A DNA stretch of 60,150 bases, filler included, from Jimgerdemannia flammicorona (taxonomy: Eukaryota), in NCBI GenBank assembly GCA_003990765.1. It is 3 parts of 3 records of this genome, joined end to end, with 100 filler letters (N's around TTAATTAATTAA, not from the genome) between each part and the next. Parts side by side here need not be neighbours in the genome. Positions count along the whole stretch, not along the records: positions 20,089 to 40,075 come from RBNJ01001787.1; 2 more parts are not named here. One strand, written 5' to 3'. The notes under the pieces are model-generated. The model did not search any database. It was not told the DNA's origin and saw nothing but the letters and a program-made list of their open reading frames with translations. The position numbers were made by a program, and so were the translations under genes. Shown here piece by piece: positions 5,856 to 50,965 of this stretch (positions are counted from its first letter, which is position 1; every line of letters begins with the position of its first letter).

Positions 5856-6313
5856 TGTGATAGTATAGCTGAATTTGGAAGAAGGAAATAGGGAATAGAC
5901 ACTTGATCACACCCATTCCCAAAGTAGTATAGCTTTATAGTTAGCAGTCGCCGATTTCGACATTGTCTAAATTCTTAGACATTATCCAAATCGAATGTTC
6001 CGATTTAGTATAGCATTTAGACATTGTCCAAATGTTTTGACAATGTCCAAATGACTCATTTATTACTTAGCCACCCTCTCATAGCTAGCAAACTTGTATA
6101 AATAACCCAGTATCTTTGAGTGAATAAACCTCAGATCGAAATAGTTCAAAGCAAAGAGATAGCAAAGGAACTAGTAAGCCTGTGGGCAGATACACTTCGA
6201 ACTCACCCACCCTCCCCTGCAACTTCAAGAGACTCTGCGAGAGTCAGAACAGTCAAGTTTTCAAGATACAGAAATCCGACGTACTTCCAAGAGTAAGCAT
6301 CCACTATGTTACA
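5856..6313 (+). repeat. 5' LTR of Gypsy family 1
   Basis: TGTGA...TTACA; direct repeat of 12091-12548; contains AATAAA. Confidence 0.95.
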
Positions 6314-6316
6314 ACT

Positions 6317-6333
6317 TGGTGCCCATTGGCTGG
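6317..6333 (+). promoter_or_regulatory. Putative primer-binding site
   Basis: TGGTGCCCATTGGCTGG 3 nt after the LTR end (TGG complements tRNA CCA); cognate tRNA not identified. Confidence 0.6.
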
Positions 6334-6427
6334 TGATTCAAGACGAATCCCTCACTTTCAAGCTGAACAACGAACAACTGCCACTACCCAAACAACCATA
6401 CAAACCAAGCCCCAATACTCAGACAAG

Positions 6428-9400
6428 ATGGATATGAGACCACCAGTATTCTATGGATATACCTCAGATGAATCAATCATTACCTTCATTGACGATTTCG
6501 AGCAGTATGCTGCCGTAAGGACTCTGACAGCAGTACAGCAAGTAGCCCTCATGCCCTTTAGCCTACGAGGTCCTGCCAGAGCAGCATTCATAGCCGCAAC
6601 CCATGCAGGAAATGATGCGGATGCTATACTGACAGCACAGAAGACCTGGCTCTGAAATACATATTACACAGACGAGATCAAGCAAGCCCTGAAGGATCAG
6701 CTCAACACAACATGCCAAGGAATGAGCGAGGATCCAAACACATTCTATACCAGAATTCGATACCAGATAATCCTTGCAGATTATGCTGCTGCTATCTGAG
6801 ATCAAGTAGCCGAAGCAACTTTCATGAAAGGAGTCCATCCAGAAATAGCCATGGCCATCTGCTCATCACCAGTGATTCTGGATCTGCCACAAAAGGTCAC
6901 CTATGCTCAGCGATACTGGATAGCCAGACACCCATAAGACCATACAATGGAGAGAGTTACAGGAGTCAGAATTGAGGCACCCAAGGCAACCAGTGTGATC
7001 CCCACCACAATGATCAATCGAAACACACCTCAGCCAAAAGCTACCGAGCAGCAAAAGAGCAGCGACCCTATGGAGGAACTTGCCAAAAGGTTTGCTGAAA
7101 TGACTGCCCACCTAGGAGATATGGTAAAGGAAATCTGAGGAAGAGATCGCCGCCCTGTTCAGAAGTTTGCTGCCACCTCAGACAAGAAGAAAGGTACCTG
7201 CTATAGCTGTGGAGAAGAAGGCCACTACTTCTACGAATATATGAGCGAAACCAAATGCAAGGCTCAACCAAGCAATGCCACATGAAACAAGGAGCAGGCC
7301 AATACAATCACCTTTGAAGAAATCAGAGAATCTGATGAAGAGAAATGGGAGGCCTACCCTGCTCAGACCACCAGGAAGGATGTTCACAAAGAACCCTACA
7401 AGAGACCACCAGGAAGACCCAAGAAGAACCCAGTGGAAAAGCAGATGGAAACTGACACAGAAAGCCAAGCTGAAGAGATGGACCAGGATATCAAGCTGGA
7501 GCAAGCAGTTCAAGACATCATTCAAGGAACCACTCTAGCCAGTGAAGGAGAAAAAGAAAAGAAGCTTCGCAAAACCAAGACCTTCAAGTATGATATCTTC
7601 AAGGATCTCAGCCAACAAAAAGTCAATGCAACCTTTGGCCAGCTGGCAGAAATACCTACATTCAGACAGCAAATGAGATTCGGACTTGCCAAAACAACTA
7701 AGGAACAAGGATGAAAGATAACTGAGACCAACAATGTTCAAGAAGACTCAGGAGAAGAGAGTGAAGACAACTGCAAAACTTCTGCCTATGCAACTTGCCA
7801 AATTGAAGATAGAATCTTTGAAGCCATCATTGAGGGAGCAGGAGGATGTCTCCTCAGTAAGAAGGCAGCAGACCGCCTAGGTTGGGATGTGGAAGAAGCA
7901 ACTAAGCTAGTATTTGTCACAGCCGATGGCACAAGAGCCACACCTCTGGGAAAGATCCGAGATGTTCCCATCAAGATTGGAGGAGCAACAATCCCAGTAG
8001 ATGTAATTGTAACCAATGCCACTAACTATGACATCCTCATCAGCAATCAATGGCTTCACAAAGCCAAGGCAGTAATTGATCTCAATGCTCAGAAGATGCA
8101 GATCACCTACCGGGGACAGAAGATACAGATCTCCATCAATGTCAACAAAGGAGTCCTGCCCGATATGGAGGAAGAAGAGAGTGAGCAAGAGGAAGCTTAT
8201 ATGGTGACTACCCCAAAGAAGAAGAAAGTTGGATGGATGAGTGAAGAAGAATGGTGCAAGAAGATCACAGAAGGTTATGCCCCACAAGGAGTCTGTCCTT
8301 ATGGAATCAAGATGTACTGTATAGAGCATATCAATGATTGCTACCAGTGCATCATCGGAACCAGGAAGATCTACCAGGAAAGAAGCCAGAAAGCTCTCGA
8401 AAAACAGATCAGGGAAGAAGAGGAGGAGGAAGATGATGAACCACCAGCCCTCCTGGAGGACAGTGATGACAAAGAAGAAATCAAGGTCAAAATTCAAAAA
8501 ATCCACCCTGATGCAGTCTTGCCAGAATACAAGTCAGAAAATGCAGCCAGAATGGACATCGCTACAGTAGAAGAAACTGTACTTGAACCCCAGACAACCA
8601 CCCTACTTACAACTGGACTAGAGATGACCATCCCAAAGGATCATGTCGGGATTCTCAAGACAAGAAGCAGTCTGGCTAGAAGCGAAATCACAATTGAAGG
8701 AGGAGTCATTGATTCAGACTATACTGGAGAAATTCTACTCATTGCTAGGAACCACAATCCTACAATTCCATTCCCAGTCAAGAAGAAGGACCGATTGGCA
8801 CAGATGTTGATCTTCCCAATCATACAGCCAAGGATCCTAGAAGTCAAGAATCTGGAGGAAACGAAAAGAGGAAAGAAAGGATTCGGATCCACAGGAAGAG
8901 GAGCGTTTGCCAGCACCAAGATCACCGAACTCGAGCACAAGAAGGAGGAAAATATGAGCAAGCACAGTTACACCATTGGAGATGAATTCCCACTCAAGGA
9001 AGAACTCAAGAAAATACTCCACAAATTCGAGGATGTCCTTGCCATAGATTTCAAGGATATCAAGGGAAAGACCCCACACTACTATCATGAGGTAGATACT
9101 GGAGACACCGAACCAATTTATCAGAAAGCAAGACCTGTCCCGCCAGCCTACTGAGAGTGGCTCAGAGAAGAAATCAAGCAGATGGAAGAAGCCGGCATCA
9201 TCAAAGAAGCCAGTAGCCCCTGGTCTTCACCAGTTGTACTAGCCCCAAAAAAAGGAAGCAAACCTGGAGAATTTGCCCTAAGGCTCTGTATCGACTACAG
9301 AAAGCTCAATGCAGTCACCAAGAAGGATCGCCAACCACTGCCGCTCATCAGCAACATCCTTATAACACTGGGAGACGAAGCACAGTACTACAGCACCTTG

Positions 9401-10417
9401 GACCTATACTCAGGATTCCACCAAATCAGACTCACAGAAGTAGCAAGTGAAAAGTCAGCCTTCATCACCCCAGATGGAACCTATATCTACCTACGAATGC
9501 CATTCGGAATGTGCAATGCACCAGCAAGCTTTCAGCGAATGATGAACAAAATCTTCCACTATGACATGGGAAGATGGATGATGGTCTATGTTGATGATGT
9601 AATCATCTACAGCAAGACGGCTGAGGAACATCTGCAGCACATACAGTAGATAATGGAGAGACTAAGACAACATGGCCTTTATATCAAACCCAAGAAGTGC
9701 AAGTTTGCGGAAATCGAGATCTCCTATCTTGGTCATATCATCAATCGAGATGGAACACACATGGACCCCCTCAAGATACAAGCGGTAGCAGCATACCCAA
9801 GGCCCACTACTGTCACAGAAGCCCAAGCCTTCATGGGACTTGCCTCCTACTATCGCAGATTCATTAGAGGATTCTCCAACATCGCAGGCCCAATCTATGA
9901 ACTCAACAAGAAGGATACCAAGTTCCAGTGGACTGGCAGACAACAAAAAGCATTTGACGAACTCAAGGTTAGACTAACTCAGGCACCTATCTTCAGATGA
10001 CCCAATTGGACCCAGGAATTTATCCTTCAGATGGATGCAAGCACACAGGGACTAGGAGCAGTCCTAGCTCAAAAAGAAGACAAAAAGGAGTATGTCATTG
10101 CATATCTTAGCTGTGGAACCCAAGGAGCTGAAAAAGAATATGAATCCTATAAGTTGGAGTGCCTCGCAGTCATCTGGGCTGTGGAAAAGTTCCACTACTA
10201 TCTGGCCGGAAGACACTTCACCATCCAGACGGACCACTCAGCTCTCACCTGGCTACTGACAACTGGACAACCCAAGGGAATCTATGCCAGATAGATAATG
10301 AAGTTACAAGCCTATGATGTAACTATCATGTACCGCCCTGGAAGAACAAATTCCAATGCAGATGCTCTCTCACGGATACCTCGAACTACCTCCAACCAAC
10401 AAATCAATCATGAATAA
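6428..10417 (+). pseudogene. Gag-protease-dUTPase-RT-RNase H polyprotein in a single frame, interrupted by point stops
   Basis: ORFs 6182, 6947, 7433, 7889, 9182, 9653 and 10031 share one frame; knuckle CYSCGEEGH; degenerate protease site AIIEGAGG; RT SPWSSP, LCIDYRKLN, MPFG, YVDD; RH DAS, E.LAVIWA, TDH, ADALSR. Confidence 0.9.
8483..8900 (+). CDS. dut: dUTPase domain between protease and RT
   Basis: All five trimeric dUTPase motifs: AARMDI, KTRSSLA, GGVIDSDYTGEI, DRLAQML, KRGKKGFGSTG. Confidence 0.92.
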
Positions 10418-11602
10418 GAAGCTCTACTATGGAATTATCACATATCTGGGACAGCGAAAGATGCCCCAACATCTGGAAGAATAGACACAAACGATTATCA
10501 ACAGAACATGGAAACAATTCGAAACTGACAGAGAAACACTGAAGAAAGGAAAACTACTAGTCATACCAGAACATAAGAAGGAGCAAGCAATGAAATCAGT
10601 ACATGAACTTGGCCATCTAGGAGGAACGAATATATATGACAAGGCAAGAAGAACAATATGGTGGCCAGGGATGGAGGAAGATATCAGACAATTCGTCAAA
10701 ACATGCGACAAATGCCAGAAACAGAAACAAGACCAATGGAATCAAGCCCCAGGATCAGCACACATAGAACCAGTACCATTCGCCCATATCGCAATAGATG
10801 TAATCGGCCCTCTACCCTTGACTTTGACTGGCAACTGATACATCATCGTCATCGTAGACCTTTTTACAAAGTGGATAGAAGTGGGACTCCTTATGGAAGC
10901 CAATGCACAGTCAATCACCGATTTCTTCCACAAGGAAATCATCTGCCAGTTCAAGACCCCAACACAAGTAACTACAGATAGAGGAACCGAATTCGTGAAC
11001 CAGTTCTTCGAAGTTCTCTATAAGAAGTACAAGATTCAGTATATTCAGACTACAGCATATCACCCTCAAGGAAACGGACAAGTAGAAAGGACCAACAAAA
11101 CCCTCAAGAATATTATCGCCAAGATCTGTGATAACTATGAGAACTGGGATCACTATCTGCCAATAGCATTATCTGCTCTCCGGGATATCCGATCACAAAG
11201 TACCCACTTTACCCCTTGAGAAATGCTATTCGGAGAAGAATGTTCTCAAGGAACCCTATTATCCAATGGAGATGCTGTATGGAAACATGTGGATGTAGAA
11301 ATATGGAGACTACACCAAATCAGGAAGAAGGCTGAGGATTACATAACCAAGGCACAGACACTGCAACGGAGGAATGCGGAAAAGACCCACAAGCCCCTGG
11401 AGATTATCAAGATAGGAGACAAAGTCCTAGTGTATCGGAATATGGTAGAAGCTTCATGGTCACGAAAACTGGAGCCCAAGTGGGAAGGACCTTACCATGT
11501 GCAAGATATAAAAGGGACTACCTTTTGGCTACAAAAACCCTCAGGCACAATAATCCCACCACCATTCACCGAAACCGACTCAAGAAATATCATGGCCAGT
11601 AA
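10410..11602 (+). pseudogene. Integrase (HHCC, DDE core, GPY/F), in a different frame from RT-RH
   Basis: HELGH...CDKC; IAIDVIGPLP; TDRGTEF; YHPQGNGQVER; KLEPKWEGPY; C-terminal HRNRLKKY after an apparent 1-bp loss near 11555. Confidence 0.9.
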
Positions 11603-12053
11603 CAAAAGTACTACAATGGCACTCAAGATCACTAGTGCTGCCCAAAGAGCCATCAAAAGACAATGGCACACTACGGAGCCTCTGACCATAGAGCCATTCT
11701 ATGAGGATATTCAGAGTATTGTGCAGACTCATCTCTCTCGGATCTCGCACTTTAGAGCCTATCAATACTGGGCAGAATTCCAAGAGTACTTCAAGCTTGG
11801 ACAGGTGCTTAATCAGGATCCAGCAAAGACCAAGGAGGACTGGATTGCCAAGTATCAACTCTCTCACTCACAGATCACTATTCCCAAAAGGATCTACAAG
11901 TTATTCCGAGAAGATGAAGCAGCGATAGACCACCTGAGAGGAGTAATCCCTACTGACTTCGAGAAAGTGAGAAGACATCATTGGGAGACAGTCATGCAGC
12001 AAATTGCACAGTATAAGACCATACAGACCATTGAAGCCTGGGAGTTTGAATAG
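11592..12053 (+). CDS. Unknown accessory ORF3 (153 aa) between integrase and the 3' LTR
   Basis: Stop-free, ATG overlaps the integrase end (cATGGCCAGTAA); decayed homologues sit at the same position in Gypsy family 2. Confidence 0.72.
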   Translation: MASNKSTTMALKITSAAQRAIKRQWHTTEPLTIEPFYEDIQSIVQTHLSRISHFRAYQYWAEFQEYFKLGQVLNQDPAKTKEDWIAKYQLSHSQITIPKRIYKLFREDEAAIDHLRGVIPTDFEKVRRHHWETVMQQIAQYKTIQTIEAWEFE

Positions 12054-12090
12054 ATGCCTCAGGGATGAGACCATCCATTCAGGAGGAAGT

Positions 12091-12548
12091 TGTGACAGTA
12101 TAGCCGAATTTGGAAGAAGGAAATAGGAAATAGACACTTGATCACACCCATTCCCAAAGTAGTATAGCTTTATAGTTAGCAGTCGCCGATTTCGACATTG
12201 TCTAAATTCTTAGACATTATCCAAATCAAATATCCCAATTTAGTATAGCATTTAGACATTGTCCAAATGTTTCGACAATGTCCAAATAACTCATTTATTA
12301 CTTAGCCACCCTCTCATAGCTAGCAAACTTGTATAAATAACCCAGTATCTTCGAGTGAATAAACCTCAGATCGAAATAGTTCAAAGCAAAGAGATAGCAA
12401 AGGAACTAGTAAGCCTGTGGGCAGATACACTTCGAACTCACCCACCCTCCCCTGCAACTTCAAGAGACTCTGCGAGAGTCAGAACAGTCAAGTTTTCAAG
12501 ATACAGAAATCCGATGTACTTCCAAGAGTAAGCATCTGCTACATTACA
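12091..12548 (+). repeat. 3' LTR of Gypsy family 1
   Basis: Direct repeat of 5856-6313, preceded by PPT AGGAGGAAG (12081-12089). Confidence 0.95.
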
Positions 12549-25305: not shown

Positions 25306-27960
25306 TTAGTGGCCTGAGCCCCACCAAGACTTCAGACACATACACACCCAGATTGTCTCAGCATTCAGCACACACCTCTTTGGGGCAATGAGGTCCACCC
25401 CACCTGAGAACACCTGCTCGATGGGAGTGCTGGAGGCAGGAATTGCCAAGTAGTCCCAAGCTATACCACACAGGCTGAGGAAGTCTGTTTGATGCAGCTG
25501 TACACCCCGGTGGGTAGAGCAGTGGTTAGATTAGTCAGTTAAATTGGTCCAACGCCCGCCTGACAACCCACCTTCCACCAGTTGAGTACCTCCAAGCCCT
25601 CCAGCAGGACCACGTGGTTGCTGGCGAGGTAAATGGTAAGTTTGTCTATTGATGGCAGCTCTTTCTCTGATGGCTCCCTCTTCCTCTTTCTGCCGAAGTA
25701 AATGTGAGATAGGAGGGATCCCTCAGCATATTCATCCAGACTTCAGCCGGAACCTTGCAGCGGTGTGTAGTTTTTCCAGTACACTTCAATTACAGCCTGC
25801 TTGGTTCTCTCAATGAAGTGCTGCTCCCTGCCCTGATCTTTATGTTATTGTAGCTTTAAGCATGGGTCCAGCACTGTTCGAAGAAAAGGAGAGTGAGTTT
25901 TTGCAGGGTTTCCTCTATTTTGGAAGAGGCAACAGCCACACACTGACATCGACATACCTGTACTGATTGAGTATACAGCAGTATCTGTTTGGGAGTAGTA
26001 TTTTCTAAGCTTGCTTAGAGCAACCTCTATGGCATCTCTCTGATCCGGGCTTAACCATAAATCACCGCAACCCTCCAGCCTGTCCTCGAGCTTGTCCTCT
26101 AGCCAGTCAATCAGAAGGTTATATACTGGTATCGCAGAGCTTATTGTCGGGGTCATTTGTTTGACTATATCCTTCGTACAATCATCGAAACACTGGCAGT
26201 TATATGTGGTGAGGTATTGTATTGTGCAGAGACAGACAAAATGAGTTTGGAGCCAGGGCAACCACTACTTACTTTCAAAACTCTGACAACATTCCTAAGT
26301 ATGTCCCACTCGCTTTCACCTAGAGCCTCAGCCCATATTTCCTTGTTGGCAGCCATCGTTGAATCTATTGGCTTTTTTTTTTTTTTTTTTTTTTAAAATA
26401 AATCTTCCATTATCTGAAACAGTTGCTTCAGCCAACCGAAGAAAAAAAGGATGCATACCACAGCAAACTCCAGCATGCACTGGATCATTGCAAATGTTGA
26501 GTTCCAATGCATACAGACGTCTAATATAAGCTCTTTCAGGGCTAAACTGATTGCCCTACACTGTGCAGTGAATTTGTCTCATCATTGTGGAGATGATCAG
26601 ACCGACACAACCAGTTTGCGCAGCTTGGAAATTATACTCAGGACCCCTCCTCTCTTGGATGTTTTATCTATGTGTGTAAGATAGTCCTGAATAGCGAGGT
26701 TCAGTACATGGGCCTGGCATCGCACATGGCAGCTTTCTGTACTGAAGGCCATGTTTTCCTGTTTGAGGCTGGCCACTAAAACTTGGAAAAATGTTGAGTT
26801 GTTTGTGGCATTGTCCATCATAATGGCCAAAATCTGTACTTGAAATATTTGGTTGACAAATTTATGTGAAAATAAGTAACCAATAAAATCTGGTTTAATT
26901 TAGGACCTCTCTCAAAATGCCAACCTGATGGCAAGCCCCCCTTTTTTACCTTGGTGGTGATCTCAAGCTCCCGGATACAACTAATAAAAGCATCTGCGAT
27001 GTTGTCTCCAGAATGAGGGCCAGCAAGTTTGATGAAGTCAAGGGTAAGAGATTTAAGCTGCCAATCGAGGTCAATCCAATGACCAGTAATGCCCAGAAAG
27101 TCAAGTCCTTCAGGACTGCTGACACTTGAAAAAATTGGAACGATACACAGAAGATTAGTATGGCCCCTGCACAAGAATGACACTATCTTCCTGAGTGGAT
27201 AGCCCTATATGGGCAAGTAATGCCCAGAAACGAAATTGCATTGGGGGATGTCCATGTGTTGATCGTAAATGAGATTTTGCCTGCTGAATTCTGCTTATTG
27301 AATGTGAGGTTAAATTGGTGAGCTCTTTTATATAATTCAGCTTGCAAAGGTCATGGTGCTACCCTTATTTTACCTGAAGTGTCTGGTGGAGATTGTCATA
27401 CTCCTTTCTATAGGCCTCCAGGACATCTTTGTGAATAGAATCGGTACTTGGCAAATATAAATCATACTTGAGGAGGCCAAAGATGCTATGTAATTGATCA
27501 CTCTCAATGGTTGTGAATGGCTGGTCTGTACACACAATCCAGCGAATGAGCTGATTTCGAAATTCTGCCGAAGAGTATGGCTAAATATTTTTGATTGAAT
27601 GGTGTTGTTGGTACAGAAATGGTCGGGCAATCGGATAAACGTACCCACCACAGCTTGGATGTCAATTTTATTTGTCTCCATGTTCTTTTTGATTTTGTCA
27701 GAGTGCTTGTCTTTTATGTGTCGATTCATGTTTGAAGTCATACCCCTAAGCATTTTGAACTTCTGGCTAGTGCAGTTCATGGGGGTGGATGAAACAATAT
27801 CATGTATATGTCAAAACAATATCATGTGTGTGACAAAACAAAGTGTCAATAGGTGTGTCTTAATTTTTTACCTGCAATAATTACAAACAACATCATCTCC
27901 TATCTTAGCATAATGTTGCCAGATTTTGGAGTGAGGATTGTATGGAAGGTGTGGAACTAT
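25306..27960 (-). pseudogene. Multi-exon hAT transposase
   Basis: BED finger SKIWQHY...CNYC / TSNMNRHIKDKH; TI(N)TWTSPN...FLGITGHWID; MDNATNN; HVRCQAHVLNL; WNST; dimerisation domain DYLAIPASSTPIEQVFS...KR..L..E...MCLKSW; disrupted by the U6 insert. Confidence 0.92.
27100..27215 (+). ncRNA. U6: U6 snRNA-derived retroposed insertion (pseudogene or chimera) with a 15-bp TSD
   Basis: Core AAAATTGGAACGATACACAGAAGATTAGTATGGCCCCTGCACAAGAATGACAC closely matches the conserved U6 core; 5' hairpin AGTCC-TTCA-GGACT; flanked by AGTAATGCCCAGAAA at 27085-27099 and 27216-27230. Confidence 0.88.
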
Positions 27961-28119
27961 CAGGGATGTTTGACTTGAAGCATCATCAGTACTGTGAACT
28001 GTTGAAGACTGATCTGTTGACATGTGTGTTTGTGTGTTTGCATATGCATATGTATGCGTGTGTATATATGTATGTGTGTGTGTTGTGTTGTGGACATGTC
28101 CAGCATATGAGTCATGTAG

Positions 28120-28500
28120 AAGATTTGGATTGGAGGATTCAGTTGAAGGATTTGGATGAGGATTTGGATTGAAGGATTCGAATTGGAGAATTCGAATTAG
28201 AGGATTTGAATTGGAGGATTCGAATTGGAGGATTTGAATTGAGTGATTTGGATTGAGTGATTCAGATTGAGTGATTCGAATTGAGTGATTCGGATTGGGG
28301 TGGTTCAGATGGGTGATTTGGATGGGTGATTCGGATGGGGCGATTCGGATGGGGTGATTCAGATTGAGTGATTCGGATTGAGTGATTCGGATTGGGGTGA
28401 TTCAGATGGGTGATTCGGATGGGGTGATTCAGATGGGGTGATTCAGATTAAATCTGAGTTGATTCAGATGGCTTCAGATTTGAGATTTAGATCAAACCGT
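28120..28500. repeat. hAT subterminal repeat array
   Basis: Many copies of GGATTCGAATT / GTGATTCRGAT[TG]G next to the right TIR; related repeats at 22060-22180. Confidence 0.85.
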
Positions 28501-41607: not shown

Positions 41608-42429
41608 ATATTTTGACTCAATTCAGTCACTGAGAAGGATGTCAATCCTTTGCTCAAAATTAATGATCTTTTTGACCAGCTACAAGATACCAGATACCTC
41701 AGCAGTATGGATCATTTTGTAGGATTCCACAAGATCCCCATAGACTTTAAGAACATTCAGAAAACATCCTTTCTTACTCTAGAAAAACTGTTTGAATACC
41801 TCTAAATGCCCTTTGGACTTTGCAATTCCCCTTCCACCTTCCAGAGAATCATGAAATCAGTCTATGCCCTCTTGATCTACCACTATCTAATTGTATACAT
41901 AGATGATTCCAACATCTATTCAGAAAATTTCAAGATATACCTACACTATCTAGAAGAATTCTTCAAGCACATCCACAAGAACCATCTGAGACTCAATGCC
42001 AGGAAATGCTACTTTGGAAAACAGAAACTTAGATTTCTTAGATTTATAGATTTAAAAGAAATCTATGTAGATTAAAGAAAATGAAGAAGATCAACAATTG
42101 GCCAATACTCAAGACTCTGAAGGAAATACTATCATTTCTGATACTAGTATTCTATATAGAAGGTTTTTCAAGGACTTTGCCCAAATTGCTGCTCCAATCT
42201 GAATCCTTCTCAAGAAAGGAGTACCTTATAAATAGATGGAATCACAAGAGAAAGCTTTCAAAGAACTCATGCACTGTATGACCATAGCACCAATCCTTGT
42301 TCAGCCCAATCTATAGAAGCCATTTATCTTATATAGAGATGCCCCAGCACCTTTCACCAGTAACATTCGGGTGACACAAGACTCAGACAACACTTTTTAC
42401 AACGTTTTTGGTGTCCGACAACTAACAAC

Positions 42430-44346
42430 ATGGACGGCAATGATCGATCTGGTGAGAATACTGGCCAGGGGGGTGACGGCACCTTTGGCTGGCAGCAGGT
42501 GGGGAGGAGGGGAGATGGTTTAGGGATGCCAGGGGCCTTGATGGCTAGCCGTGGCCCCAGTGGCAGAGGGAGGGGAGGTCTGCGGCAGAGAGGAGGGGAG
42601 AGGACGACCTTTGCTGACAAGGTCAGGATGGGGAAGATGGCTTCTGGGCTGGATAGTTGGCTGGGCCTGGGGAAGGCATCAATGGCTAATGCTGGGGGTC
42701 AGGGAGGTGCACCCCAGGGTACTTCTGGTGGTAGGGAAGGGGCCGGAGTAGGGGCTGGAGATGTGACTGTTGATGGGGCTGTGACTGGGGATCTGGCAAA
42801 AAATCCAGATGTGATGGCAGTTGGCAATTCGGGACTTGGAGTGGGCACGAGGCCTGGGGACCTGGCGGATGGGGTGACGGGCATGGTGTCGGCCCCGTTA
42901 CTCAAGAAGTCGAGGTCCGAATTCACGGTCATGATGTGCTTCCGGGGCTTGGCAGTAACGGTGAGGATGATTTTGGGGCTGGTGGCACAAGAGGCTAAGG
43001 GAGCAGCATCGGTGAAGTTCTTGAGAGGAAAGGAAGGGGTTGAGGTGGGGTTTGAGAAGGAAGATGCCTTGTTGGCAGCCATGGAGAAGGGGGTGATGGT
43101 TGGTGGGGTTGTGGTCCCTATGGCCCAGTGTATGTGCTGGGACCCCCGGATGGTGCAGTTGATGGTGTTGGACCTTTCCACGGTGTCAAAGGAAAGGACC
43201 AGGGAGTTGGTGGTGGAGGCGATCAAGGAGTATGGTGAGATTGTGGATGTTGGGTTCAAGGTCTGGGAGGGCACGGAGCTTAGAACTGGAGACGTTGATA
43301 TCAGGGTGAGACTGGCTGGAAAGGAGAATACGGGGAAGTCGAGGGACTGGCCGGCGGTGCTGAGGTGGGGACTGGTGGAGTGTAAGGTCACTAGGGTGAA
43401 GGGAACTCAGGAGGAGGAGGAGGACTTGTTGGAGGCTCTAGAGGACCTGGAAGGGGCAGTTGCGAGGAGGAGATTAGCTTGGAAGGAGTTTGAGGCCAGG
43501 ACAGTGGTGGGGGAGGTGGATGGGAAGAGAGTTCGGATGGAGAAGGGGGCCTGGGAGAAGATGCAGGGGAGGAGGATCCAGAAGGAATTGTTAGCGAAGA
43601 TGGGCGGGGGTAGGGCTGGTGGAAGCTCCGGGGAGGGGGCCGCAGGGTTGCAGGAGAGCGCCTGGGCTGAAGGGGGTGAGATGGCCCAGGGCGGGGCTCA
43701 GGTTGGAGTCGGGGAGGAGAGGGAGGATAACTTGGAGGTGGATACTGAAATGGGCGAAGGTGGGCGACCTCAGTATAGTGTTCCGAATGGGGCAGGAGGC
43801 GAGGAGGAGCTGATGGATGTGCCAGATGAAGAGTGGGATGAGTCAGTGAGGAGGAGCGTGCTGGTAGACCCTGAGGTGGATGGGGGGCAGATTGCTCAGG
43901 GGGCAGCGGAGGCGGTTGATGAGGAGAAGTGGATGTGGAAGACTCTGGAAGGGGTAGCGGCTGAGGAGCTGGGGGGTGAGGACTTCAGGGTGATGGAGGA
44001 GAGGCATTGGGAAGAGATTCTACGTGGGGAAGAGGTGCCAAGGAAGATGAGGAATGAGATCCTGGCTGTCCTCCTGGAGTCTGTTGAGTATCAGGTTGAT
44101 GATCAGCGAGAGGAGGAGCTTAGAAGGATTGCGAGCGACAGGGCACTTGTCTTGTAGAACTCGAGGAAGGGACTGGAGAAGTGGTGCGCAGTCTGCTTGG
44201 ACTACAGGGCTGATATGGAGGAGGTGGACAGGGTGGAGTGTCAGGAGATCTTGGGGGCACTGGATGCTCAGGATATTGCGGAGGGTGAATTTGAAGCTGA
44301 GCAGCTCTTGGACTTAGCGAGGGATGAGATGAGCATGGTATTATAG
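42430..44346 (+). pseudogene. LINE ORF1 (638 codons, one TGG-to-TAG stop at 44155-44157)
   Basis: 575-aa ORF continues in frame to TAG at 44344-44346; copy A has Trp at the stop. Confidence 0.88.
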
Positions 44347-44377
44347 GTTGGAATCTCTTCTACAATATCTACCCAAT

Positions 44378-47300
44378 ATGAACAGTACAACTAGGATATT
44401 CTCATTGAACATTAATGGGCTACAGGGGGCAGCTAGGAGGAAGTACATTTTTGGTTGGCTTTGGGATCTGGATGCAGACCTCTTCTTGTTACAGGATGTT
44501 TGGTATGAGGCAGATGTGGATTTACAGGATTGGACTAAGGAATGGGGGGTGCAGCAGTTTGGAGGGGGAAAGTGAGTATTCTTGTTCGGAAAGGGATGGG
44601 GTACATTGGGGACATTGGACATTGGGGGTCGCGTGTGGTGTGGGGAGTATGGAAGAGGCCTGGATGGGGCTCACTGACAGTTGGGTCTTGCTACTACCTG
44701 GCTGAGAGAGGGGAGAGGGTGGATTGGATTCGTAGTTTGAAAGAGGCTGGATTATTGGGAGAAGTTGGGTTTGACTGTATGGGGGGGGACTTCAACATGG
44801 TGCGAGATAAGGAGTTGGACAGAACTGATGGAGGGAGAGGCATGTGAGGTGAGAGTGGTGGATTGGCAGACTGGTTGGAGACAGAAAGGTTGTGTTCTTT
44901 AGTGGACTCAGGGAGATATTTTTGGGCAGATCGGCAGGTGTATACCCATTGGGCAGCAGGACTGGGCTCTAGGATTGACTGGGTTCTAACGGCAGAGTGT
45001 TGGGGAGTGGATGTTTGGATGGCGCTGGGAGTCATATGGTGTCCATGGTCTGATTACTGGGGGCTGCTTGGAGGGGGGAGGTTTGGGGGAAATGAGGATG
45101 GGCCCGGACATTGGTGGCTAAACTCTTCCTTGTTGGAGGATAGGACATTGTGGGAGGGTTGGGAAACAGAGGTGGTTGGTGATATTGGCAGGTGGCGGGA
45201 TCAAGGACTGGCAATTGGGGACCGCTGGAGGAGGTTGAAGGTGAAGGCTCAGGGGTATTGGAGGGAAGCGGGGAAAGGAAAGAGTGCTCAGTGAAGGCAG
45301 TGGGTGATGTGGGCCTCACGGCGTTTGGCGGTGCTCATGGAGAGATGGGCGGTTATGCTGGAGGATAGGGCTGAGGCTGATTGGCATATTGCGAGAATTA
45401 GGCAGGAGGTGGAGGAGCTCAAAGGGGTGCTATGAAGGGAGGAAGAGGAACAACTGCAGGGGATGGTGGCCCACTTGCGATGGCAAGGGCTTGAGGAAGG
45501 GGAGAGACCTACCAGGTTCTTGTCACGGTTGTTACAAGCACGACGAACGAGGCAGCAGTGGGAGGGAGTTTTGGACAAGGATGGCGAGCTAGTGGTGGGG
45601 ACCCCGGCGATTTTGGAAATATTGCATTCCCAGTGGGGGAACCTTTGGAGTGAGGATGAAGGGGGACTGGATGCTCTGGACATTGAAAGGCAGCTGGGGG
45701 ATTGGCACCTGGACCCTGCCGTGGGTCTTGGGGCATTGGGGGACCCAGTGAGTGGCAAGGAGATTTGCAAGGTAGTGGCATCTACAAGTAAAAGGACAAC
45801 CCCGGGAGAGGATGGACTCCCCTGGGATTTTTGGCAGAAGATGACAGGGGTGCATGAGGTACTAGAGGAAATGAGGGCTATGTGTGATGAAGTTCTTCGG
45901 TCTGGTGCCTGGATTGGGGGACAGCACTTGGGGCTGGTCTCCTTGCTTTATAAGACCAAGGGCAGGAGGGAGGATTGGAAGAACTGGCGGCCAATCATGC
46001 TTCTGGACATGGACCACAAACTGGTGATGAAGATCGTGGTGTTGTGGTTGCAAGGGATTGCGCAACAGGTGCTTGGATTGGAGCAATGTGGGTTTGTCGG
46101 AGGTCAGTTGATTCGAGATGGGACGGCCTGGATTCATGGAGTGATTAAAGGTGCCCGGGCTACAGGGGTAGATGGCAGATTGGTATTTCTGGACCAGGAG
46201 AAGGCTTATGATAGAGTGCGGAGAATATGGCTGGAGGGAGTGCTGAAGCGGATTGGTATCCCCCCAGGGTTTCGAGGTTCATTGGTCAGCCTTTTGGAGG
46301 ACAGTCAGGCGGCATTGGTCTTAATGGCCACCGGGGGGTGACCTTCCCCCTGGGCTGTGGGGTGCCACAAGGGGACCCCTTGTCACCCATATTGTATGCC
46401 CTTTCCCTGGAGCCACTACTGGACAGGATTCAGTATAAGATTGGTGGCTTGGACATTTTAGGGGTGAACTGGAAGGTGGGGGCCTTTGCTGATGATATGG
46501 TGGTCGGGCTGGATTCCTTGGGGGATGTTGGAGAGTTGCAGAGGACAGTGGAATGGTACGAGCAGGGTTCTGGTGCTAAACTGAACTGGCACAAATGTGA
46601 GACACTGATGCTGGGCACTGGGATTGTTGGTGGTGATGTTATTGGGATGGTGGTTCCGGCTGGTGAACCGGTGCGCTACTTGGGGATCTACTTCTCAGTG
46701 TTCGGATCTCTTCTTCCCCGGGCATGGTGGGACCATAAACTGCTGGAGTGGGGTGATGTCTTGATGCGATGGGGAGGCTGGCATATGTCCCTTGCCGGAA
46801 GGGTGATGGTGTTGAATGTGTACTGGATGCCGAAACTGTGGTATGTTGGGTATCATTTGGATTTCCCACCGTGGGTGGTTAAGGGGTTGTTGAAGATGGC
46901 AAGGTTGTGGATCTGGGGAGGGCGGCGGAGCCAGGTTGGTTGGGAGGTGCTCACACTGCCCTTGGAGAGAGGTGGACTGGGCTTAGTGGACTTTACTAAG
47001 CGGCTTTTATGTCTGAGGGCTTGGTGGCTGAGGAGGGCAAGTGAGCTTTGAGATCGGGAGTGGGTGCCACTCATGCAGAGGCTGTGGGAGGTTCGATACT
47101 CCCCACGTGGTGGCTCTGGTGACCTGCTTGCAATGGTGGCCATGGAAGGGAGCCAGAGGATGTGGTTTACAGGCTTTTGGTGGGGAGCGGTGGATGGTGC
47201 TAAGAAAATCGGCCTTCGGTGGCAAGGTGATGAGACCGAGGAGGTTTGGGGACCGCAGATGTGGAGATGGAACAGGCTTCTATTGGGTGGTGTTCTGGTG

Positions 47301-48038
47301 GAAGACTTTCAGCTTGCTGAGGGTCTGGAGTGCCTGCGAGGCCTAGGTGGAGACCTGTGGCCTGAAGCCTGGCAGAGGGTTGGAATCGGGGAAGAGTGGG
47401 ATTGGAATGGGCTCTGGCTTTGGAGCAAATGGGTGAGGCAGTGGCTGCCCCCCAAGTTCTGGTTGGCATGGTGGCAGGTCCTTCAGCGGAATGTGATGCT
47501 GAACTATCGGTCTGGTCACTTGGTGGACAGTGGGGTTTTCGAGTGCGAGGATTGTTTCAATGTTGGTCAGGAGGGAGGGGTGGTACAAATGCCAGAACAT
47601 TGGCTTGGCGAGTGTGAGGTTTTGGGGGAGTTCTGGAAATGTATTATGGACAGGTTAGGGTTGGGGGCTGGGGGAGGGGAGGGAGGGGGGAGATGGGGAG
47701 AGCTTCACCGGCGGTTAGTGGGTGGGGTTGGGGACAAATGGCTGACCCTTGATTGGGCCTTGGCTATGTGGGTTGGGTTGGCAGGGCATTGGGTGTATGT
47801 ATTTGAGGACGGGCATTGGGTTGGGGTTGGAGAGAAGGTGGCATGGTGGGAATGGCTGCTGTTGGACATTTTAAACAGCTGGTGGCAGGGTTGGGGTCTG
47901 GGTGGGGGGTACCACAGGAGTTTGGTGCAGTATATCTCCCAGAAGAGTGGTGGGAGGGTTCGGGTCATGGGTGATAAGGTGGTGCTTGGGCAGGGGGAGG
48001 TTGAGAGTGAGGGGTTGGGCCCCTGGGGCATTGGTTGA
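44378..48038 (+). pseudogene. LINE ORF2 (APE-RT-CCHC), with stops and frameshifts
   Basis: LNING, GGDFN, SRIDW, NWRPI, LDQEKAYD, GVPQGDPLSP, AFADD, YLGI, CEDC...EHWLGEC. Confidence 0.92.
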
Positions 48039-48105
48039 AGGGGTGGGTGTCATTATATTGTTGGTACTATAGACTTCGGTAATAAAGGGCAGTCCAAGAG
48101 ACTAT

Positions 48106-48136
<31 letters not shown>

Positions 48137-50965
48137 GAGATGCCTCCAATAATGAGAAGAATCTGACCAACAGTACTATATAATAGCTTATACAAGCTGA
48201 GCTACCAATCAGCAGCAAGCCAACTATGGTAATACCAAATTGGAATGCCTTGTAGTTATATGAGTAGTTACTCTGTTCAAGTATTATCTCATCAGAAAAA
48301 GGTTCACCTGGATAACTGATCATGTAGCCCTCAAATGGCTATTTAACTATAAGAAATCTACTGGAATATTTGTCTACTGGATCCTTATCCTCAAGAATTA
48401 CAAAATCACTATTATCCACAAAGCAGAAAAAGCTCACAACAATGTTGATATACTTTCACACCAACTCTAATAAATCAGAAGAAGGATGTATCAAGGAACT
48501 ACACCCTAAAGAAAGCTCCTCAGACCATCAAAACACAAGAAGATCTTATCTAAAAAGAATACCAGAAAGCTCACTAAGGATAGACAAATATAGAAGAAAA
48601 GATACAAACAATATATCAACATTAGCCTAATCTCGGAACACAAGTTCAAGACATACTCAAGAAATGTGACACCTGCCAGAAGTACCAAGGAAGGAAGAAC
48701 TATCAAGCACCACTACAACTAATTATACTATCAGATAATATCTTTCAGAGATGGGGAGTAGATGTTATTAGATCTCTACAAGTTATATCAAAAAGGAATA
48801 AACATATCCTTATGTTTGTAGAATATCTGACCAAGTAGCCTGAAGCTTTTCCAATTGAAATCACAGATACCTTTACCATCATAGACCTCCTCCATGAACT
48901 CACACTCAGATATAGACCTCTAGAAGAATTTATATCTGACTAAGTAATAAATTCATCATTAATATAATCATAAGTTATGCCTAAATTTACAAGATCCACC
49001 TTAAATAAACTACATCATACTACCCTCAGAGCAATGGTATGATAGAATGAATGGACCAAACCATCAAGAAAGGACTTGTCTGAGTCAATCCTACCAACTG
49101 GGACCTCTGCTTATCTAAGATCCTATGGAAAATTCAGAATACCTCTGCTGCCTTCACCAAACAAAAGCCCTTTGAGATGATGTTTGCTAAGAAAACCAGA
49201 ACTACTGACAATGTGAATCTCAGATATCTCTTCAAGAAGGTAGAATAGTTATATAATCAAGCATGAGTTCAGATCATCAAGGCCCAAGAGAGACAAAAGA
49301 AGTACTATGATCAGAAGCAGAAGGATCAAAAGATCCAGATTGGAGATTAAGTATTAGTTTGGAGAAGTATGATTGAAACCAACTTTGCTACCAAACTGGA
49401 GCCTAAATGAGAAAGATCTTATCTTATACATAGCATCAGAAGAACTAGCATCTATTTCAAAAGTATAGATAGATGAACTATGAAAATACTAGTATATATC
49501 AACTACCTTAAGATATATCTCTCCCCTTATTATGAATCAGACAATTGACCAGTATCTCCAGACTCTTATTCTGATTCATTACAGTCACTTCCAGTTTCCC
49601 TTCCACAATTTCTGCTAAGCCAATAGAATCTCCTTCAATGAATCCAGATCCATCAAGAGAACCTCACCTTGGTCAGACCTTTATTATAAGTCCACCAACT
49701 ATAGGCCTATTATGCAATTTGAGAATAGTTGCAGAACCTTCTGGCTGCAGACCTAATCTACATCAGGAACTCCACTGGCCTGATCTGGAAAAACATCACT
49801 ACTGTAGACAGACTGTATACAATCTATAAATAAAATATCCCAGCACTGATATAGGTACAATTCTCTCTGAATGATATATAAAACATGAGTCCTGCTACCT
49901 ACTGAAGTATCATCAACCATGTTGAGATCTTATTTTCAGCAGAAGAAGAAGAATCTGTTAAATAGAGTGACTCTGATCCAAATGAAGATAATGGGTCAGA
50001 TATTGATGTTGAAGATGCTTATATACATTAAAGTGATAACCAAAGGATAGTCTAAGGACAGACCATTCTTTAGTGGGGGCTGATGATGAGCAGCAGAATT
50101 ATACTACTGAAATTGTAAATTAGTTACATACTATATCTAGTATACTAAGCAACCAAGACTACCTTACTGCACCAATCTGTATAATTAGTCAGAGATATTA
50201 GAAAGAGTATATATACCAGTACCAGTCAGGTACACTATACTGAGTGAGTATACTGTATCTATCCAGTACACCATACTGTCAAGGTACACCTACCATAAAT
50301 AGCAATCTATAATTAGCAATATAGTAACCAGATAGTAACCACAACTGTATAAAATACCTCAGAGATAAGAGTGAATAAACCTTAGTCTGAAATTCAAAGC
50401 AAAAGACAAGTCTGTCTATCACACTTCAAGAGGACCTCTATAGCTACTGCTAGTAGATTGTGAGCTTACTTTCTACTCTAGTCCACTTTCTGATACAAAG
50501 AACAAGTCAATTTTTAGTTCACATGCCAGATAAGCCTGAAGGTTTGCTGCCAATGTTTAAGTGAAGAACTTTACTGCCTTTTGAAGTAAAATCTACCACT
50601 CAAGGAAGAGCCACCATTTTCAAGAAGTCTGCCATCATTCAAGTTATCTGCCATTTCCAGAGAGCCCGCTATTCTTGCCACAAGCCAGTCTTCTGATACA
50701 ACTTTGCAGTGGAACCAGTCCATCTGACATAACCCTGTGCAAATGAAGCCAGTCTTTGATGTAACTTGCCCAAGAATCTGTGATCTATGCCATCTGAGTT
50801 ATTTCCCAGAAGAGCCGATTCAGGAAGAATTCTCACCACCCGAGTTATTTTTCCATTCCCAGTAAGCCTGATTCAGAAAGAATCTGCAACATCCGAGTTA
50901 TCTACATCATCCAAGTCACCCGAGTTATTTGAAATCATCAAGTTATCTGATATTCCCAGAAGCCC

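What the first reader, a model, noticed from the sequence alone, without database searches (positions are those of the whole stretch)
27085..27230. U6 snRNA-derived retroposon with a foreign hairpin tail: U6 chimera or candidate U6-derived SINE
Seen: a 116-bp insert (27100-27215) flanked by a perfect 15-bp duplication of transposase coding sequence. It starts with G and a long 5' hairpin, then has the U6 core with variant ACACAGA (normally ACAGAGA) and AGT (normally AGC). After GACAC it does not follow the U6 3' ends I know and has no U-run or poly(A). It instead ends in two short hairpins (CTATC..GATAG; GCCC TATAT GGGC). Known: 10-20-bp TSDs mark LINE target-primed reverse transcription, U6/LINE chimeras exist, and SINEs are Pol III heads fused to LINE-recognised tails. 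Inference: this is a one-off template-switch chimera, a copy of a divergent native U6, or a member of a U6-headed SINE family.
Basis: partly seen in the sequence, partly recalled or inferred. Interest (0 to 1): 0.7.

Follow-up and report, generated by a model that had tools for sequence, protein, structure and literature searches.

The report
Mass-copied U6 RNA retropseudogene family
This insert is one of about 126 scattered DNA copies of the organism's own U6 splicing RNA in a likely fungal genome, likely pasted by a LINE retrotransposon enzyme and likely dead; its "foreign tail" is the normal end of the organism's U6 genes, so it is not a new SINE, though the copy number and the missing poly(A) tails are unusual.

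Summary
The 116-bp U6 insert and its perfect 15-bp duplication are real. Three duplication-free U6 genes share an upstream promoter with the SRP RNA gene; two carry this same tail, the third a variant of its hairpin. The tail's first half pairs with this genome's U2 5' end (helix II). The ACACAGA change is private to this copy; AGT is C>T decay. The insert is one of about 126 retrocopies: 115 of 128 records have duplications, 83 of those 115 end in U6's own T-run, 3 in poly(A), none in a LINE piece. Mutations are 94% C>T/G>A with no subfamilies, so copies came straight from the genes. U1, U2 and SRP RNA gave 0, 2 and 1 clear retrocopies. Verdict: a U6 processed-pseudogene burst, unusual in scale and in its oligo(U) ends. 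The scan saw single members before on other DNA of this genome. Side lead: a gypsy family carries the same promoter (263 hits).

The parts
27085..27099 (+). Left copy of the 15-bp target-site duplication (hAT transposase codons F-L-G-I-T on the minus strand)
27100..27215 (+). U6 snRNA retrocopy, RNA positions 1-116, five substitutions from gene L014 (27112, 27117, 27148, 27159, 27176)
27100..27123 (+). U6 5' stem-loop; starts at the gene's G+1
   Evidence: centroid fold; same start in 127 of 128 non-promoter records
27145..27151 (+). ACAGAGA box, with a G>C change found only in this copy
   Evidence: 1 of 120 copies has it; box intact in 106 of 120
27157..27159 (+). Catalytic AGC triad, decayed to AGT
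   Evidence: C>T here in 7 of 120 copies; intact in 113 of 120 and in the genes
27190..27200 (+). U2/U6 helix II strand: first half of the supposed foreign tail
   Evidence: duplex with this genome's U2 5' end, 10 pairs, -15.4 kcal/mol; 4 of 2000 shuffles as good
27202..27214 (+). Extra 3' hairpin GCCC-loop-GGGC, native to the U6 genes of this genome
   Evidence: same stem with three different loops in genes L014, L027, L053; absent from four type-B retrocopies
27216..27230 (+). Right copy of the duplication; its first 3 bases also match RNA positions 117-119 (junction microhomology)
25309..27810 (-). Broken hAT transposase gene that received the insert
42331..48144 (+). Near full-length broken LINE with poly(A) tail and 13-bp duplication; example of a candidate enzyme donor, not part of the insert

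Best explanation
The insert is one of about 126 promoterless copies of the genome's own U6 snRNA genes, likely made by a LINE reverse transcriptase that used the finished U6 RNA directly as template, and likely dead. Shown: three U6 genes with a shared upstream element and a T-run terminator; the tail is their 3' end (U2/U6 helix II strand, a small extra hairpin, AAG, oligo-T); the copies start at G+1, end in or just before the oligo-T, sit between 14-17 bp duplications at unrelated sites, and differ from the genes almost only by C>T/G>A decay. Inferred: Pol III makes the RNA from the upstream promoter; a LINE endonuclease nicks a weakly preferred target; the free 3' end primes on the last bases of U6 (here by three matching bases, AGU) with no poly(A) added; the 120-nt template is copied to its 5' end; the copy lacks the external promoter and cannot breed, so each copy is a separate event from a gene.
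For: Genes: L014, L027, L053 are the only U6 starts preceded by TTT (3 hits), lack duplications, and share about 70 bp of upstream sequence with the SRP RNA gene L075. Helix II pairing with U2 holds for all tail types, -14.0 to -16.7 kcal/mol. Copies: 106 exact tail-pattern and 102 exact core-pattern hits, controls 0; 115 of 128 non-promoter records have a duplication against 0-1 in ten flank swaps; 102 of the 115 are 14-17 bp; only 1 pair shares a flank. 396 of 423 substitutions in 120 copies are C>T/G>A, highest at CpG (0.25 per site per copy); 17 of 120 equal gene L014 over positions 1-110; shared-mutation counts match the permutation null (307 vs 327 pairs; 107 vs 110). No B-box-like motif in the 125 copies scanned or downstream of the genes. 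Clipped copies show more junction microhomology than chance (mean 1.54 vs 0.78, n=26, p about 0.001). Target sites are non-random (A at +3 in 64 of 107). LINEs with L1-like RT and 13-bp duplications are in the window.
Against: Which enzyme did it is not shown; the window's LINE ends in poly(A), whereas the U6 copies mostly do not. Microhomology in copies that reach the U-tract is barely above chance (1.0 vs 0.78, n=71, p about 0.05). Expression of the tailed U6 was not tested. The gene for the four hairpin-less type-B copies was not found, so the gene set may be incomplete in a 35,354-contig assembly. The sample leans to young, full-length copies: older or shorter ones are undercounted (183 candidates).
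Confidence: 0.85

Rival explanations
1. A true U6-headed SINE: a U6 head joined to a LINE-recognised tail, with copies that are themselves transcribed and re-copied.
For: High copy number, fixed 5' start, one dominant 3' end and independent duplications look like a SINE. The hairpin-bearing type A gives 124 of 128 records.
Against: The tail is in promoter-bearing genes and holds helix II. No tail-pattern hit lacked a U6 head except one cut by a contig end. No match over 10 nt between tail and the window's LINEs. No subfamilies. No B-box-like motif inside the copies.
Confidence: 0.05
2. Same retrocopies, but made by another enzyme: a non-poly(A) LINE clade, a Penelope-like element, or break repair that captures U6 RNA or cDNA.
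For: The U6 copies end in T while U2 retrocopies L061 and L064 and the window's LINE end in poly(A), so two routes may exist. The target preference is not the T-rich L1 site described in PMC4476161 section 8.
Against: Tight 14-17 bp duplications and a target consensus point to an endonuclease making staggered cuts, not to random break repair. Poly(A) U2 copies have duplications of the same size, and 3 U6 copies do carry poly(A).
Confidence: 0.2
3. A one-off template-switch or RNA-ligation chimera of U6 with another RNA.
For: Such chimeras are common in vertebrates (PMC4476161 sections 5, 9, 10), and this genome has an RtcB match (111 bits).
Against: The same tail is in at least 106 places and in the genes. 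Among 100 core-pattern loci none has a LINE piece between U6 and the duplication: 59 U-tract, 25 clipped, 3 poly(A), 3 genes, 10 with decayed or cut-off duplications.
Confidence: 0.01
4. The dispersed copies are working U6 genes.
For: 17 of 120 equal the gene over positions 1-110.
Against: They lack the upstream element (core motif at the right place in 3 of 125) and decay at essential bases; this copy has lost both ACAGAGA and AGC.
Confidence: 0.02

Closest known systems
U6 snRNA processed pseudogenes of vertebrates (Doucet et al. 2015, PMC4476161; read: outline and sections 5, 8, 9, 10, 12; supplements not read)
   Same: Promoterless U6 copies with 10-20 bp duplications; 3'-clipped copies with junction microhomology made by 'template choice'; U6 among the most copied snRNAs.
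   Different: In human the full-length 'alone' copies had no duplication, and retrocopies were chimeric, poly(A) or 3'-truncated (table 1). Here 83 of 115 end in U6's own T-run with a duplication, 3 have poly(A) and none is a chimera. Caveat: their automated 3'-truncated group (hundreds in cat, dog, ferret) could hide near-full-length copies. The target consensus is not TTTT/A.
Tailless retropseudogenes (Schmitz et al. 2004; seen only as cited in PMC4476161 and PMC4494074)
   Same: No poly(A), duplications, priming by short pairing with the nicked target.
   Different: Described as 3'-truncated and mammalian; most copies here reach the RNA's natural end, in a likely fungal genome.
SINEU of crocodilians (Kojima 2015, PMC4494074; read: passages and section 19)
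   Same: Many dispersed snRNA-derived retroposed copies.
   Different: SINEU heads are U1 or U2; families have shared extensions or deletions and several master copies, which set them apart from a sum of retrocopies. None of that is found here.
Fungal U6 gene sets (Canzler et al. 2016, seen only as summarised in PMC5855946, passage in section 5)
   Same: A few true U6 genes per genome (3 found here; reported mean 2.3).
   Different: Reported maximum 20 copies among 145 fungal genomes; this genome holds about 129 U6 loci.
WEIRD/LINE chimeras of Magnaporthe grisea (PMC2104539; read: passages)
   Same: Fungal LINE machinery copying a non-coding RNA with 10-20 bp duplications.
   Different: Those are chimeras of an RNA stated to have no homology to U6.

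Membership tests
snRNA processed pseudogene | Colinear with a native snRNA gene from +1 to the 3' end | tested here: met
   5 substitutions against gene L014 over 119 nt
snRNA processed pseudogene | Lacks the gene's upstream promoter | tested here: met
snRNA processed pseudogene | Variable-length target-site duplication | tested here: met
   15 bp here; 115 of 128 records, control 0-1
snRNA processed pseudogene | Made by LINE ORF2 protein | not testable with these tools
   LINEs are present; the link is inferred
SINE / SINEU | Many dispersed copies with independent duplications | tested here: met
SINE / SINEU | Body or tail unrelated to the head RNA gene | tested here: not met
   tail is in genes L014, L027 and pairs with U2
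SINE / SINEU | 3' end shared with a partner LINE | tested here: not met
   no hit over 10 nt against the window, which holds three LINEs; other LINE families were not compared directly, but every fetched tail-pattern hit with flank has a U6 head
SINE / SINEU | Subfamilies or master copies other than the RNA gene | tested here: not met
   permutation test on 120 copies
SINE / SINEU | Internal Pol III promoter in the copies | tested here: inconclusive
   no B-box-like motif in 125 copies; A box not scanned; transcription not tested
U6/LINE chimera | U6 joined to a LINE or mRNA 3' fragment inside one duplication | tested here: not met
Spliceosomal U6 gene (for L014, L027, L053) | Intact ACAGAGA and AGC, helix II with U2, terminator T-run | tested here: met
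Spliceosomal U6 gene (for L014, L027, L053) | Expressed and assembled into snRNPs | not tested
   no RNA holder listed

The most novel reading that the evidence does not exclude
A fungal retrotransposon enzyme has a strong, poly(A)-independent preference for U6 RNA and primes on its oligo(U) end, so the working U6 genes act as master genes of a SINE-like burst (about 126 copies against 0-2 for U1, U2 and SRP RNA): a caught-in-the-act stage between RNA gene and SINE. The lineage's extra 3' hairpin in U6 may be the handle the enzyme grips; against this, gene L053 has the hairpin and no copies, and four copies have no hairpin.
Probability: 0.3. Interest if true: 0.6.

Novelty: new variant of a known kind. 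Interest (0 to 1): 0.4.

Why it matters
It removes a false SINE and puts a number on something earlier notes treated as single events. About 126 independent insertions of one fixed 120-nt template are a ready data set for the target site, duplication length and priming rules of a fungal retrotransposase, and for C>T decay by context. Oligo(U)-ended, full-length copies bear on the open question of how LINE enzymes start on RNAs that have no poly(A). The genes also show an unusual U6 (extra hairpin between helix II and the U-tail) and an upstream, B-box-free promoter shared with SRP RNA, unlike yeast. Eight literature searches listed no paper on a fungal U6 retrocopy family or a U6-headed SINE; the library lacks most subscription journals, and a 2009 paper on a U6-derived repeat in primates (seen only as a reference in PMC11838501) was not held.

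Tried and rejected
Expression: no RNA holder listed; no read evidence was obtained, so nothing is claimed on expression. Relatives: one metagenome scan with a tail-plus-hairpin pattern gave 1 hit, a chance match in a bacterial-looking gene with no Rfam family; the genome has no relatives in the genome search, so conservation of the hairpin in other species is untested. Idea that missing RtcB explains the lack of chimeras: rejected, an RtcB match is present (not checked for contamination). Idea that the insert's TGGGCA end was templated from the target's opposite strand: rejected, it is in the genes. Idea that the hairpin alone drives copying: weakened (type C gene with hairpin 0 copies; type B without hairpin 4 copies). 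The microhomology null counted one side only and was too lenient; one search corrects it and its figures are the ones used. Capture-recapture on the listed hits (100 tail, 95 core, 73 shared) gives about 130 and is a lower bound. Of 131 distinct records, 3 are genes; L160 and L173 are two halves of one site split between contigs and L188 may be the rest of gene L027, hence 'about 126'. Eight Pfam scans of short hAT fragments gave one hit.

Full report
Observation. The window shows a perfect 15-bp direct repeat at 27085-27099 and 27216-27230 around a U6 match of 67.2 bits. The target is a broken hAT transposase on the minus strand; the repeat is five whole codons and the frames on each side continue the same protein stretch. 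The insert as a whole folds no better than shuffles (z -0.66).

It is a family. A DNA search of the own genome (231 Mb, 35,354 contigs) scored 40 of 183 candidates and all 40 matched over 114-116 bases at 95-100%; the Rfam U6 search matched 48 of 48 scored. Exact patterns gave 106 hits for the tail and 102 for the core, reversed controls 0. I fetched the listed hits and obtained 131 distinct records. Three have an upstream promoter; 128 do not, and these stand for about 126 sites. 127 of 128 begin at G+1 (the other is cut by a contig end); 115 have a duplication scoring 9 or more against 0-1 in ten flank swaps; 102 of these are 14-17 bp. Of the 13 without, 8 have a decayed repeat just behind the tail and 5 touch a contig end. 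One pair shares a flank. Many copies sit in the middle of LINE or gypsy DNA in either orientation, with both flanks continuing the host, so these elements are targets, not partners.

The tail is native. L014, L027 and L053 lack duplications, end in long T-runs and share about 70 bp of upstream sequence. The same upstream sequence precedes an SRP RNA gene (Rfam 135.7 bits; alignment), and a CCCAY motif 55-78 bases upstream plus a TATA-like box recurs before the U1 and U2 genes. They are the only U6 starts preceded by TTT. L014 and L027 carry the tail of the window copy; L053 keeps the GCCC/GGGC stem with another loop. The first half of the tail pairs with this genome's U2 5' end as helix II: -15.4 kcal/mol, reached by 4 of 2000 shuffles; the other tail types give -14.0 and -16.7. 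The tail has no hit over 10 nt elsewhere in the window, which holds three LINEs. Four copies of a hairpin-less type B exist, all with duplications; their gene was not found.

The odd motifs are decay. Against gene L014 the window copy has five changes. In 120 type-A copies 396 of 423 substitutions are C>T or G>A, with rates per site per copy of 0.25 (CpG), 0.075 (CpA), 0.035 (CpC) and 0.005 (CpT). The box change is in this copy alone, the triad change in 7. The other substitutions occur once, or twice in two cases. Pairs sharing 3 or more or 4 or more changes are no more frequent than in permutations (307 vs 327; 107 vs 110). The two loop variants match the two genes. This is the pattern of separate events from the genes, followed by what is likely methylation-driven decay, and not of copies breeding copies.

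3' ends and mechanism. Of the 115 copies with duplications, 83 reach the U-tract (2-46 T, mode 4-5), 29 stop before or at it and 3 have poly(A). In the core-pattern subset, which is not chosen for the tail, the split is 59, 25 and 3, with 10 lacking a scored duplication and 3 genes. No chimera was seen. Clipped copies have excess junction microhomology (1.54 vs 0.78, n=26); U-tract copies hardly do (1.0 vs 0.78, n=71). The window copy is a clipped one with three shared bases. Target sites favour A at -3, -1 and +3 and T at 0. The window holds a poly(A) LINE with a 13-bp duplication and an L1-like RT. That LINE machinery made the copies is an inference from duplication size and target bias; the donor family is not identified.

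U6 is singled out. U1 gave 3 matches of 41 scored, all with promoter motifs. SRP RNA gave 3 of 3: one gene, one diverged locus and one tailless copy with a 14-bp repeat. U2 gave 13 matches of 47 scored; of the 12 viewed, 2 are poly(A) retrocopies with duplications, 2 are unclear and the rest look like genes or tandem gene relics. These searches score only top candidates, so short fragments of these RNAs may be missed.

Comparison. The kind is known: U6 processed pseudogenes (PMC4476161, sections 5, 8, 9, 10, 12 read; supplements not read and may list near-full-length copies). The dominant form here, full length with its own oligo(T) and a duplication, is not one of the duplication-bearing groups in that paper's human table. 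SINEU (PMC4494074, section 19 and passages) is set apart by shared extensions and master copies, which are absent here. A review passage (PMC5855946) gives at most 20 U6 copies among 145 fungal genomes. Earlier notes of this scan describe single members in this genome and name an early-diverging fungus; I did not test the taxonomy.

Verdict. Observation confirmed; chimera and SINE readings not supported; a U6 retropseudogene burst of unusual size and end structure, from U6 genes with an extra 3' hairpin. New variant of a known kind, interest 0.4. The search for the promoter also exposed a gypsy family with the same promoter in antisense at the integrase end, which may deserve its own study.

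Noticed in passing
L072-L074, L076-L089, L091, L093, L098, L100, L101 (for example L086:1400-1705, G000:C12020): A gypsy family carries the full U6/SRP-type upstream promoter followed by a roughly 215-nt unit that starts with G, has a terminal stem, an internal B-box-like motif and a TTTT end. It lies antisense and overlaps the last codons of the integrase (rve). 263 exact hits for the promoter-start pattern, control 0. No Rfam match (L086). A 67%-identical gypsy in L100 shows no such unit by eye. It may be a retrotransposon-borne Pol III gene, like adenovirus VA RNA (recalled). Transcription untested.
   Followed up: partly
L090:446-580, L092, L094, L095, L096, L097: At least six loci of a roughly 130-nt G+C-rich RNA gene behind the same promoter, ending in T-runs, with no Rfam match at E 0.1; fold not better than shuffles. 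Unidentified Pol III-type RNA family.
   Followed up: partly
L014, L027, L053, L075/L207, L210-L212, L058-L060: U6 and SRP RNA genes have an upstream element at about -66 and no B-box-like motif downstream; U1 and U2 genes share its CCCAY core plus a TATA box. This looks like the animal or plant snRNA promoter plan, not the yeast one. SNAPc subunits were not searched.
   Followed up: partly
L031, L032, L033, L203: Four retrocopies of a hairpin-less U6 type whose gene is not in the searches: either missing from the assembly or lost, which would make them fossils of an older U6.
   Followed up: partly
L182 and L185: Two U6 copies at the same site of one repeat family (92% shared flank) with different tails: repeated targeting or a copy carried along by its host.
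   Followed up: no
L067-L069 (G000:C16254) and L065-L066 (G000:C1922): Clusters of diverged U2 genes with their promoters, three within 2 kb.
   Followed up: no
L213 (G000:C13472:3217-3741): RtcB-family match, 111 bits; most fungi are recalled to use Trl1 instead. Not checked for contamination.
   Followed up: no
window 28117-28471: Array of 13-15 bp repeats (GGATTCGGAT-like) upstream of the hAT gene, likely its subterminal repeats.
   Followed up: no
window 5856-12390: Gypsy-type element with 97% identical terminal repeats and a dUTPase beside the protease.
   Followed up: no
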